Positions 541-694 of a DNA stretch of 1,593 nt are shown piece by piece. Origin of the DNA: Escherichia coli (lineage in GTDB: Bacteria > Pseudomonadota > Gammaproteobacteria > Enterobacterales > Enterobacteriaceae); the NCBI RefSeq assembly GCF_024223415.1, contig NZ_CP100509.1; one strand, given 5' to 3'. The notes under the pieces were generated by a model, which had not been told where the DNA came from, made no database searches, and saw nothing but the letters and a program-made list of their open reading frames with translations. A program made the position numbers and the translations under genes. Each line of letters starts with the position of its first letter. The stretch's first letter is position 1.

Positions 541-694
541 AAAATCCAGCTCAAAATTCAAGCAAATCTCGCGCGCGATCCTTGTATTTATACTTAAGGG
601 ATAACTCTAGGATTCAAATTGGCCTCCAGCCCTTGTCCCGCAAGGCTTGAGGGCACATTTGCTCCGAAATGGGTTTAGAAGTATTCTGTCGGAA

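What the first reader, a model, noticed from the sequence alone, without database searches (positions are those of the whole stretch)
570..645. Paired CCTTGT...AAGG elements and a (CG)4 tract
CCTTGT occurs at 580-585 and 631-636, each followed by a complementary (T/C)AAGG (595-599; 641-645). The second forms a clean hairpin CCTTG-tcccg-CAAGG. The first encloses an AT-rich core GTATTTATAC whose CTTGTAT is a 5-of-7 match to CTTGATA. An alternating CGCGCGCG tract (570-577) with an adjacent GATC lies just upstream. This is an alternative nick-site or Rep-binding candidate.
Basis: seen in the sequence. Interest (0 to 1): 0.3.

Follow-up and report, generated by a model that had tools for sequence, protein, structure and literature searches.

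The report
Leading-strand origin of a rolling-circle plasmid

Summary
The window is a complete 1593-bp circle. It is a deletion variant of Salmonella plasmid pB (ColpVC type) and encodes a Rep_1 (pC194/pUB110-family) initiator.

All motifs in the finding are at the stated coordinates, but they are three unrelated things.

1. Positions 578-604, (A/T)TCCTTGTATTTATACTTAAGGGATAA, are the best-conserved stretch of the whole plasmid. The block is 96-100% identical between clades whose rep DNA is 66-78% identical. It always lies 180-330 bp upstream of rep on the same strand.
   - In more distant Rep_1 relatives, and in pC194 and pUB110, the same position reads TCTTAT-CTTGATA-...AAGGG-(A)TAAC.
   - The predicted nick is T589^A590 on the + strand, inside the least stable duplex of the circle.
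   - A natural hybrid plasmid has its crossover in ATAC (590-593).

2. The (CG)4 tract and the GATC site are clade-specific.

3. The CCTTG-N5-CAAGG hairpin is the core of an imperfect palindrome at 620-655. It is also clade-specific and has no covariation support. It probably belongs to the Rep/HU-binding accessory part of the origin.

Verdict: a real feature, but an ordinary member of a known kind.

The parts
578..604 (+). Invariant nick block of the double-strand origin (dso): ATCCTTGTATTTATACTTAAGGGATAA.
   Evidence: The block is identical in 19 of 20 whole plasmids whose Rep is 68-100% identical to the window's. It is 96-100% identical where the flanks are 41-65% and rep DNA 66-78% identical. 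Among loci fetched by Rep protein alone with Rep at least 55% identical and upstream sequence available, 15 carry the exact 25-mer and 3 carry it with one mismatch; L156/L157 (63%) and L165 (59%) carry CTTGATA instead. It is homologous to the pC194/pUB110 dso.
586..592 (+). Heptamer ATTTATA, the homologue of the canonical nick heptamer CTTG^ATA. The predicted cleavage is between T589 and A590.
   Evidence: A gapless alignment with L172, L179, L187, L219, pC194 and pUB110 (A3) gives invariant T587, T588 and A590. The hybrid plasmid L222 has its crossover inside ATAC (590-593), and the left edge of that microhomology is the predicted nick. The cleavage position in pC194 and phiX174 is taken from established knowledge (Gros et al. 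1987).
584..597 (.). AT-rich core (12 of 14 bases are A/T); the easiest-melting duplex of the plasmid.
   Evidence: In a nearest-neighbour stability scan, windows of 12, 16 and 20 nt all have their global minimum at 581-604.
580..599 (.). Weak inverted repeat CCTT-GTA-TTTA-TAC-TT-AAGG. The predicted nick would lie in its 4-nt loop.
   Evidence: The minimum-energy fold is -1.2 kcal/mol, no better than shuffles. There is no compensatory variation. It is probably sequence-read rather than a required cruciform.
570..577 (.). (CG)4 tract: a GC-rich left border of the melting region, specific to the enterobacterial clade.
   Evidence: It is present in 35 of 118 distinct block-bearing sequences, and (CG)3 in 51. 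It reads CGCGCGTG in Col(BS512)-type plasmids. It is absent in L005/L006 and in environmental relatives, which have G-rich then T-rich flanks instead.
577..580 (.). GATC (Dam) site overlapping the start of the block; not conserved.
   Evidence: It reads GTTC or AATC in many relatives and is present in 43 of 118.
609..622 (.). A/T-rich spacer with a short A-tract (AGGATTCAAATTGG). An A-run at this distance from the block recurs in all clades.
   Evidence: A bending or HU-binding role is inferred by analogy with the downstream enhancer of pKYM (PMC4439123, citing Yasukawa 1997).
620..655 (.). It is a clade-specific accessory element of the origin and lies just upstream of the putative rep promoter.
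   Evidence: It folds at -10.3 kcal/mol, z -2.5. The 5-bp core is kept in 22 of 29 distinct variants while the loop varies, but covariation is no better than shuffles (A2). Other sequences replace it in Col(MP18), Col(BS512) and environmental clades.
659..687 (+). Putative rep promoter: -35-like TTGCTC (659-664), a 17-nt spacer, and -10-like TATTCT (682-687).
   Evidence: This is inference. The consensus scan found no promoter. Relatives, however, have TTGACA at the same place with the same 17-nt spacing.
844..1593 (+). rep gene, N-terminal 250 codons. It continues across the circle junction.
   Evidence: Pfam Rep_1 PF01446, E 4.9e-67. It contains the HUH motif H168-P-H-F-H172 (A1).
1..240 (+). 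rep gene, C-terminal 79 codons plus the stop codon.
   Evidence: Pfam Rep_1, profile positions 182-252. Together with 844-1593 it gives the 329-aa protein that is 100% identical to pB Rep. The catalytic E239-x-x-K-Y243 motif, which aligns with pC194 and pUB110, is encoded at the end of the 844-1593 part.
236..485 (+). Candidate single-strand (lagging-strand) origin. It lies upstream of the dso and so would be displaced last.
   Evidence: As single-stranded DNA it folds at -68.5 kcal/mol, z -6.2, with 0 of 200 shuffles as good. The hairpin at 414-446 is kept by a compensatory change in BS512-type plasmids.

Best explanation
Positions about 570-655 are the double-strand (leading-strand) origin of a ColpVC-type rolling-circle plasmid.

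Proposed mechanism:
1. The plasmid's own Rep_1 initiator recognises the invariant block at 578-604.
2. Negative supercoiling opens the AT-rich core at 584-597. The core is bordered on the left by the (CG)4 tract and on the right by GGG.
3. Tyr243 of Rep cuts the + strand, most likely between T589 and A590 (ATTT^ATA, the homologue of CTTG^ATA in pC194, pUB110 and phiX174), and becomes linked to the 5' phosphate.
4. The 3'-OH primes leading-strand synthesis towards rep, and the + strand is displaced.
5. After one round, the regenerated block is cut and the ends are resealed. In pC194 this step uses the Glu that lies four residues before the Tyr, which here is E239.
6. The released single strand is converted to duplex from the structured region at 236-485.

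The sequence to the right of the block (the A-tract at 609-622 and the palindrome at 620-655 containing CCTTG-N5-CAAGG) is a clade-specific accessory part of the origin. It is most likely a Rep and/or HU binding 'enhancer' like the one described for pKYM. Because it abuts the putative rep promoter (659-687), it could also let Rep repress its own gene.

Shown here: conservation, homology, position, strand, duplex instability, and a natural recombination junction.
Inferred: the exact nick, the melting step, the roles of HU and Rep binding, and autoregulation.
For: - **Initiator.** Rep_1 initiator, E 4.9e-67. It is 30% identical to pUB110 RepU (E 6e-46) and 26% to pC194 RepA (E 2e-20), with the HUH and E-x-x-K-Y motifs aligned.
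- **Conservation.** 578-604 is invariant in plasmids with Rep 68-100% identical. It is 96-100% identical against 41-65% for the flanks and 66-78% for rep DNA. It is the best-conserved stretch of the circle, found in 19 of 19 relatives.
- **Motif-independent sample.** In loci fetched by Rep protein only, the exact or one-mismatch 25-mer lies 180-330 bp upstream of rep in 18 loci with Rep at least 55% identical.
- **Homology to known origins.** More distant relatives carry TCTTGT-CTTGATA-CTTAAGGGATAAC and similar sequences at the same place. These align without gaps to the window and to the known pC194 and pUB110 origins.
- **Layout.** The dso-upstream-of-rep, same-strand arrangement matches pC194 and pUB110.
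- **Melting.** 585-596 is the least stable duplex of the plasmid.
- **Natural junction.** The hybrid L222 reads ...CCTTGCATTT|ATAC|GCACGG, against its parent L224, which reads ...GAGCAC|ATAC|GCACGG. The crossover is in 590-593, starting exactly at the predicted nick.
- **Literature.** CTTGATA is the conserved nick site recognised by Rep_1 proteins (PMC10378824). The pKYM + origin is 173 bp, with a RepK-binding core and a downstream HU-binding enhancer (PMC4439123).
Against: - No nick has been mapped for this plasmid. The position is set by homology only.
- The heptamer lacks the G at -1 and the C at -4 of the canonical site.
- The hybrid junction is a single evolutionary event, found post hoc, and is ambiguous over 4 nt.
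- The second integration example examined is broken inside rep, not at the block.
- The hairpin that would place the nick in a loop is not stable and is not kept by covariation.
- The palindrome at 620-655 shows no covariation and is missing from pKYM-type plasmids that carry the same block, so its role is conjecture.
- No consensus promoter was found.
- The original pKYM papers and the pKYM sequence could not be obtained.
Confidence: 0.8

Rival explanations
1. One reading: the nick lies in CTTGTAT (581-587), that is CTTG^TAT between G584 and T585, by analogy with CTTG^ATA.
For: The tetranucleotide CTTG at 581-584 is identical to the 5' half of the canonical site. CCTTG is conserved in nearly all relatives.
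Against: - Relatives such as L172 (TCTTGT CTTGATA CTTAAGGGATAAC) contain both the CTTGT flank and a separate canonical heptamer. They align to the window without gaps at 22 of 25 positions, which places CTTGATA over ATTTATA.
- pC194 and pUB110 have TCTTAT at the position of CCTTGT.
- G584 itself varies (A in L013 and L162; C or T elsewhere), whereas T587, T588 and A590 are invariant.
- The natural junction lies at 590-593, not at 584/585.
- The match is 4/7.
Confidence: 0.07
2. The block is conserved as a protein-binding site only (a Rep operator, a promoter element or a host-factor site), and nicking happens somewhere else in the plasmid.
For: The block lies about 70 bp upstream of a promoter-like sequence. 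Origin binding by pUB110 RepU is reported to autoregulate its gene (own knowledge, not checked here).
Against: - There is no CTTGATA in the window; the only one-mismatch site is inside rep on the - strand.
- No other non-coding stretch is conserved across clades. The CTTGAAC at 318-324 is not.
- The block is homologous base by base to experimentally defined nick regions.
Confidence: 0.06
3. The functional element of the interval is the hairpin at 620-655, acting as a single-strand origin, a transcription terminator or part of a regulatory antisense RNA. The upstream motifs would then be incidental.
For: It is a stable hairpin as single-stranded DNA (-10.3 kcal/mol, z -2.5). Its core is kept in close relatives while the loop varies.
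Against: - There is no covariation beyond shuffles.
- It is absent from Col(BS512), most Col(MP18) and environmental relatives.
- There is no T-run and no terminator call, and no Rfam family.
- The region at 236-485 is a far stronger single-strand-origin candidate (z -6.2).
Confidence: 0.05
4. The pattern is a chance arrangement of short repeats with no function.
For: Two copies of CCTTGT arise in 32 of 200 shuffles. The first hairpin is no better than shuffles.
Against: The 25-27 nt block is invariant across Rep proteins down to about 55% identity and across several bacterial orders.
Confidence: 0.02

Closest known systems
Plus (double-strand) origin of pKYM, the Shigella sonnei rolling-circle plasmid (Yasukawa et al. 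1991, 1997)
   Same: A 2.1-kb S. sonnei Rep_1 plasmid of the Col(BS512) type (L002) has a Rep 69% identical to the window's. I take it to be pKYM-like. It carries the identical block TCCTTGTATTTATACTTAAGGGATAA at the same distance upstream of rep. The pKYM origin is described as a RepK-binding core plus a downstream HU-binding enhancer, 173 bp in all (PMC4439123). That fits the layout here of a block followed by an A-tract and a GC-rich element.
   Different: Outside the block the two origins are only about 50-60% identical. The pKYM-type has CGCGCGTG instead of (CG)4, and AGCCCAGTAATGACGAGGCT instead of the CCTTG-N5-CAAGG palindrome. The replicon types differ (ColpVC versus Col(BS512)). The pKYM sequence and papers could not be retrieved, so the equation of L002 with pKYM rests on memory.
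dso of pC194 and pUB110 (Rep_1 / pC194 family, Gram-positive hosts)
   Same: The order of elements is the same: TCTTAT / CCTTGT, then the heptamer, then AAGGG, then (A)TAAC. It lies 180-300 bp upstream of rep on the coding strand. The initiators are homologous, with HUH and Glu-x-x-x-Tyr motifs.
   Different: The heptamer is ATTTATA rather than CTTGATA, with T instead of G at -1 and A instead of C at -4. There is one extra base on each side of AAGGG relative to pC194. The hosts are Gram-negative. A GC tract and a palindrome flank the block.
phiX174 gene A protein origin (CAACTTG^ATATTAATAAC)
   Same: The core logic is the same: CTTG^ATA-type cleavage in an AT-rich stretch followed by ATAAC, carried out by an HUH tyrosine nuclease (own knowledge).
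   Different: It is a phage origin. The initiator belongs to a different family and uses two tyrosines. No comparison was computed here.
Hairpin-loop origins of pT181 (Rep_trans) and pMV158 (Rep_2)
   Same: The idea that the nick lies in the loop of an extruded hairpin next to a plasmid-specific binding locus. Here the predicted nick would fall in the TTTA loop of CCTTGTA-TTTA-TAC..AAGG.
   Different: The initiator families are different. Here the hairpin is marginal (-1.2 kcal/mol) and is not maintained by compensatory changes.

Membership tests
pC194/pUB110-family (Rep_1) double-strand origin | A Rep_1 (PF01446) initiator is encoded on the same replicon. | tested here: met
   E 4.9e-67 for residues 68-250, plus the C-terminal part in window 1-237. 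The protein is 329 aa across the circle junction.
pC194/pUB110-family (Rep_1) double-strand origin | The initiator has an HUH metal-binding motif and a catalytic Tyr with a Glu four residues before it. | tested here: met
   H168-P-H-F-H172 and E239-T-L-K-Y243 are invariant in alignment A1. They align with NPHFH / EMAKY of pC194 and NQHMH / ETAKY of pUB110.
pC194/pUB110-family (Rep_1) double-strand origin | The nick region is homologous to TCTTAT-CTTGATA-(N)-AAGGG/ATAAC. | tested here: met
   Alignment A3 and the gapless 21-22/25 matches to L172, L179 and L219. The pC194 and pUB110 sequences were read from the records.
pC194/pUB110-family (Rep_1) double-strand origin | The exact canonical heptamer CTTGATA is present. 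| tested here: not met
   There is no CTTGATA in the window. The homologous heptamer is ATTTATA (5/7). This is a variant allele, also seen in L203 and, as ATTTATT, in L195.
pC194/pUB110-family (Rep_1) double-strand origin | The origin lies a few hundred bp upstream of rep on the coding strand. | tested here: met
   It is 264 bp upstream here and 180-330 bp in relatives. The layout is the same in pC194 and pUB110.
pC194/pUB110-family (Rep_1) double-strand origin | A Rep-dependent site-specific nick and a single-stranded DNA intermediate. | not testable with these tools
   This needs nick mapping and strand-specific detection of ssDNA.
pKYM-type plus origin | The same nick block as the S. sonnei 2.1-kb Rep_1 plasmid. 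| tested here: met
   L002, L016, L017 and L019 carry the identical 25-mer.
pKYM-type plus origin | A downstream enhancer bound by HU that aids Rep binding. | not testable with these tools
   Only the description in PMC4439123 was available. The downstream region here is about 50% identical to the BS512 type.
pKYM-type plus origin | Identity of the comparison plasmid with pKYM itself. | not tested
   No pKYM record was found in the plasmid collection, and the papers are not held.
Hairpin-loop nick origins (pT181 / pMV158 type) | The nick lies in the loop of a stable hairpin that is conserved as a structure. | tested here: not met
   The fold is -1.2 kcal/mol, no better than shuffles. A596 changes to T or G with T583 invariant.
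Single-strand origin (sso) | Extensive, strand-specific secondary structure of the displaced strand. | tested here: not met
   560-660 on the + strand has z -1.6, against z -6.2 for 236-485.
Intrinsic terminator or described regulatory RNA | A GC-rich stem followed by a T-run, or a match to an Rfam family. | tested here: not met
   No terminator-like site was found in 560-700. There was no relevant Rfam match at E up to 1.
Z-DNA-forming alternating CG tract with a role in the origin | Conservation of the alternating tract wherever the block occurs. | tested here: not met
   (CG)4 is present in only 35 of 118 distinct block-bearing sequences. Formation of Z-DNA itself is not testable here.

The most novel reading that the evidence does not exclude
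The ATTT^ATA block may be a natural nick-site allele of the Rep_1 family. It would have T, not the G conserved from phiX174 to pC194, at the scissile position.

The allele is kept letter-perfect across Reps down to about 55% identity. It is shared by at least three enterobacterial replicon types (ColpVC, Col(MP18), Col(BS512)). It is interspersed in the Rep tree with CTTGATA-type origins.

If this is right, plasmid specificity would lie in the divergent sequence to the right of the block, including the CCTTG-N5-CAAGG palindrome. Co-resident plasmids could then cross-initiate or cross-terminate. Rep could also join the origin to pseudo-sites elsewhere, as the L222 junction ...ATTT|ATAC|GCACGG suggests.
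Probability: 0.45. Interest if true: 0.4.

Novelty: new member of a known kind. Interest (0 to 1): 0.25.

Why it matters
These roughly 1.6-2.6 kb plasmids are common. A match to window 486-700 occurs in 338 of 5426 complete E. coli genomes, and they also turn up in Salmonella, Klebsiella and Shigella. ColpVC is a routine replicon call in surveillance papers (290 papers), yet in the searchable papers its replication origin is not described.

Pinning the origin to 578-604, with a predicted cut at T589^A590, gives:
- a precise target for nick mapping;
- a simple exact-match marker for this plasmid group, a 25-mer that retrieved more than 120 metagenomic contigs;
- a natural test case for how Rep_1 nucleases tolerate changes at the scissile dinucleotide.

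It does not change how rolling-circle replication is understood.

Tried and rejected
- **Rfam.** A scan of the whole window at E up to 1 found only a meaningless miRNA hit at 230-280.
- **Promoter and terminator scan.** No promoter was found, and the only terminator-like sites are in or just after rep on the - strand.
- **Covariation test of the second hairpin.** On 29 distinct variants it was no better than shuffles, so no claim of structural conservation is made.
- **Cruciform idea for the first inverted repeat.** Rejected on energy and on the lack of compensatory change.
- **NCBIfam and solved structures.** Searches with Rep gave nothing.
- **Literature.** The pKYM primary papers and the Khan and del Solar reviews are not held. 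Searches for the block sequence, pVCM01, ColpVC with 'rolling circle', and RepK found nothing on the origin.
- **pKYM record.** None was found in the plasmid collection.
- **Chromosomal copy**. This is a BS512-type plasmid broken inside rep within a prophage gene. It is probably a misassembly and is uninformative about the nick.
- **pT18**. The plasmid copy is bounded by IS26, so it is also uninformative.
- **Apparent ATTGATA 'intermediate' heptamers** in L181, L196 and L208. In L196 and L208 these are the reverse complement of the Rep active-site codons (L-K-Y = CTTAAGTAT) inside rep; the L181 match lies just past the rep match on the opposite strand. All are rejected as origins.
- **Multimer-like contigs** (L053, L121). 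Not used as evidence, because two plasmids that share a long repeat can give such paths as assembly artefacts.

Full report
**What the window is.**
The 1593 bases are a circular permutation of a complete small plasmid. An ORF runs from 844 off the end and continues at 1-240, giving a 329-aa protein with a full Rep_1 (PF01446) domain. The sequence is 99.2-100% identical to Salmonella Enteritidis plasmid pB (NC_005002.1, 1983 bp, replicon type ColpVC). It lacks pB 1099-1480, and the junction lies inside the palindrome at 240-272. Rep is 30% identical to RepU of pUB110 (E 6e-46) and 26% to RepA of pC194 (E 2e-20). The HUH motif (H168-P-H-F-H172) and the E239-x-x-K-Y243 motif align with both. The element is therefore a pC194/pUB110-family rolling-circle plasmid of Enterobacteriaceae. 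The finding lies in its 600-bp non-coding region, about 200-270 bp upstream of the rep start codon.

**Checking the observation.**
All coordinates are correct. Three points need correction.
- CTTGTAT matches CTTGATA at 4 of 7 positions, not 5.
- Two copies of CCTTGT are not unusual: 32 of 200 shuffles had two or more.
- As single-stranded DNA the first inverted repeat folds at only -1.2 kcal/mol, no better than shuffled sequence. The second is the core of a 36-nt imperfect palindrome at 620-655, which folds at -10.3 kcal/mol with z -2.5.

By sequence statistics alone the finding is weak. Comparison with relatives decides the matter.

**Conservation.**
A sensitive search with 480-760 showed that the only piece shared with the most divergent ~2.1-kb plasmids is 562-604, at 95% identity. 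I fetched 19 whole plasmids with Rep 68-100% identical to the window's, covering the ColpVC, Col(MP18) and Col(BS512) types.
- In an alignment of the 450 bp upstream of rep, (A/T)TCCTTGTATTTATACTTAAGGGATAA (578-604) is invariant. The single exception is one G-to-A change in L013. The flanks diverge freely.
- Between clades the block is 96-100% identical, where the 100 bp on either side are 41-65% and rep DNA 66-78% identical.
- A k-mer census over the whole circle shows that 579-604 is the best-conserved stretch of the plasmid, found in 19 of 19 relatives. That exceeds even the codons for the catalytic motifs (at most 16 of 19). The CTTGAAC at 318-324 is not conserved.
- An exact scan of metagenomes for a 22-mer from the block returned more than 120 contigs. 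The motif almost always lay upstream of a Rep_1 gene on the same strand, typically 200-370 bp from the start of the Rep match, with Rep 53-100% identical.

**A sample not biased by the motif.**
I retrieved loci by the Rep protein alone from one genome per species.
- Among loci with Rep at least 55% identical and enough upstream sequence, 15 carry the exact 25-mer and 3 carry it with one mismatch, 180-330 bp upstream of rep.
- Three contigs (L142, L147, L164) end too close to rep to judge.
- L156/L157 (Pseudomonas, 63%) and L165 (59%) carry a CTTGATA-type block instead.

**The key result: the register.**
More distant Rep_1 relatives (40-63% identity) have the canonical pC194-type sequence in the equivalent block. 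In most of them it lies about 200-320 bp upstream of rep; in L172 and L179, which sit on long contigs, it lies downstream of rep. Examples:
- L172: TCTTGT-CTTGATA-CTTAAGGGATAAC
- L187: CCTTAT-CTTGATA-ATTAAGGGATAT
- L219: CCTTCT-CTTGATA-CTTTAGGGATAAC
- L168: CCTTTA-CTTGATA-CAATAGGGATAAC

These align to the window without gaps at up to 22 of 25 positions. They also align with the experimentally defined origins, read from the records: pC194 (TCTTAT-CTTGATA-AT-AAGGG-TAACT) and pUB110 (TCTTAT-CTTGATA-CATATAGAAATAAC).

In that alignment CTTGATA sits over the window's ATTTATA (586-592). The window's CCTTGT corresponds to the TCTTAT flank, not to the heptamer. The invariant columns are C581, T582, T583, T587, T588 and A590.

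Rep_1 proteins recognise the conserved CTTGATA nick site (PMC10378824). In pC194 and phiX174 the cut is CTTG^ATA (established knowledge: Gros et al. 1987; phiX174 gene A protein). The predicted cut here is therefore T589^A590 on the + strand. ATTTATA is a 5/7 variant allele. It is also found with Reps only 43-44% identical (L203 ATTTATA, L195 ATTTATT), so the two alleles are interspersed among Rep lineages.

**Independent supporting observations.**
- *Duplex stability.* With nearest-neighbour stabilities, the least stable 12-, 16- and 20-bp windows of the entire circle all fall at 581-604, with TATTTATACTTA at 585-596 the minimum. This fits an origin that must open. Twelve of the 14 bases at 584-597 are A/T. 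The (CG)4 tract on the left and GGG on the right bracket this stretch.
- *A natural recombinant.* About ten large IncF plasmids (for example NZ_OK236218.1, L222) carry the non-coding region of a ColpVC plasmid, from just after the rep stop codon up to ...CGCGCGTTCCTTGCATTT-ATAC. It is joined there to a 4-kb MobQ/Rep_3 plasmid. The intact form of that plasmid (L224) reads ...GTTGAGCAC-ATAC-GCACGG.... The crossover therefore lies within the 4-nt microhomology ATAC (window 590-593), and its left edge is exactly the predicted nick. This is what Rep-mediated joining of the origin's 3'-OH side to a pseudo-site would produce. It is, however, one event, found post hoc, and ambiguous over four bases.
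- *A second integrated copy.* This one, in an E. coli chromosome, is broken inside rep and looks like a misassembly. It says nothing either way.

**The accessory motifs.**
Among 118 distinct block-bearing sequences, (CG)4 occurs in 35 (and (CG)3 in 51), the overlapping GATC in 43, and CCTTG-N5-CAAGG in 37.
- *(CG)4.* It is an enterobacterial feature. It reads CGCGCGTG in Col(BS512). It is absent in L005/L006 and in environmental relatives, which have G-rich then T-rich flanks.
- *GATC.* It is replaced by GTTC or AATC in many plasmids, so Dam methylation is not a general requirement.
- *The palindrome at 620-655.* Its 5-bp core is kept in 22 of 29 distinct variants while the loop varies (TCCCG, TGCCG, TGCGG, TGTGG, CGTAC...). 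The pair-count test shows no covariation beyond shuffles: 72% of cells are paired against 73% in shuffles. In Col(MP18), Col(BS512) and environmental clades other GC-rich sequences occupy the position.
- *What all clades share to the right of the block.* A short variable stretch comes first, then an A-run about 35-42 nt from the block start, then a GC-rich element, then a -35-like TTGxxx. The last reads TTGACA in many relatives and TTGCTC at 659-664 here. It has a 17-nt spacing to an A/T-rich hexamer, TATTCT at 682-687 here.

This arrangement matches the published outline of the pKYM origin: a 173-bp region with a RepK-binding core and a downstream enhancer that HU recognises (PMC4439123). I therefore read 605-655 as the clade-specific accessory (binding or bending) part of the origin. 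It abuts the rep promoter, so it could also allow autoregulation. That reading is inference.

**Rivals.**
- *Single-strand origin.* Unlikely for this interval. 560-660 has z -1.6, whereas 236-485 folds at -68.5 kcal/mol with z -6.2 and lies upstream of the nick, where such origins usually sit.
- *Terminator or known RNA.* Not supported.
- *Chance.* Excluded for 578-604, but it remains the best account of the repeated hexamer.

**Comparison with what is known, and novelty.**
By every testable criterion this is a pC194/pUB110-family double-strand origin, except that the heptamer is a variant. It is the same nick block as in the S. sonnei 2.1-kb plasmids that I take to be pKYM-like. I could not obtain the pKYM sequence or the primary papers, so I cannot say whether the ATTTATA register or a mapped nick has already been published. 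The plasmid itself is known (pB) and the family is very common: 338 of 5426 complete E. coli genomes. I file it as a new member of a known kind, of low to moderate interest. The only mildly surprising point is the letter-perfect ATTT^ATA allele shared by three replicon types.

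Noticed in passing
window 240-272 (junction about 258-265): The window is a complete circle equal to plasmid pB minus pB 1099-1480 (about 382-390 bp). The deletion junction lies inside a 15+15-nt palindrome just after the rep stop codon, and pB has the two arms about 370 bp apart as inverted copies.
   Followed up: partly
window 236-485: This is an extremely structured region as single-stranded DNA (-68.5 kcal/mol, z -6.2, several long hairpins) and is probably the lagging-strand origin. The hairpin at 414-446 keeps its stem in Col(BS512) plasmids through a compensatory T-to-A / A-to-T change.
   Followed up: partly
window 501-523, + strand: A G-quadruplex-type motif, GGG-N7-GGG-N1-GGGG-N2-GGG, sits in the G/T-rich spacer between the structured region and the origin. 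G-rich runs just upstream of the nick block recur in unrelated clades.
   Followed up: no
window 441-450 and 747-756: An exact 10-nt direct repeat, ACCACCTGTA, flanks the origin region about 140 nt upstream and 165 nt downstream of the predicted nick. Both copies lie in locally conserved sequence.
   Followed up: no
window 783-808: The block ACAGGTGATATGGCAATGATAACAC, 36-60 nt upstream of the rep ATG, is conserved across the ColpVC and Col(MP18) clades and partly in Col(BS512). It could be a second promoter, an operator or a translational-control element.
   Followed up: no
L222 (NZ_OK236218.1) 2189-3114, and L224 3281-3288: About ten large IncF plasmids carry the non-coding region of a ColpVC plasmid fused at ATAC (window 590-593) to a 4-kb MobQ/Rep_3 plasmid. 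An inverted copy of the same 4-kb plasmid segment lies about 500 bp to the left, and IS26 and ISKpn26 are nearby.
   Followed up: partly
L053, L121, L005: Some contigs or records hold several origin blocks. L053 alternates units of 1983, 1783 and 1983 bp. L121 has head-to-head copies. CP077070.1 is a 4229-bp record with two rep genes. These are either real multimers or heteromultimers, or assembly paths through shared repeats.
   Followed up: no
L142-L147, L163, L166 (genome contigs): Near-identical copies of this enterobacterial Rep (93-95%) sit on tiny contigs in assemblies of Kineobactrum, Rhodosalinus, Vogesella, Streptomyces and Marinobacter. A 73%-identical one is in Streptococcus hillyeri. 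This looks like contamination of those assemblies by small E. coli-type plasmids.
   Followed up: no
L001, L003, L004, L012, L014, L018 (record typing): The plasmid database types these 2-2.7 kb plasmids as 'mobilizable' although no relaxase is listed. Presumably an oriT-like match exists somewhere in them. It was not located.
   Followed up: no
L225 (E. coli chromosome NZ_CP148401.1) 1948-3987: An almost complete Col(BS512)-type plasmid copy is embedded in a prophage, between truncated capsid and other phage genes. It is broken inside rep with about 50 bp missing. This is probably a long-read misassembly rather than an integration.
   Followed up: partly
L196 about 1215 and L208 about 2188 (minus strand, inside rep): The reverse complement of the codons for the Rep active-site residues L-K-Y (CTTAAGTAT) mimics ATACTTAAG of the nick block. 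It produces spurious origin-like hits inside rep genes.
   Followed up: yes
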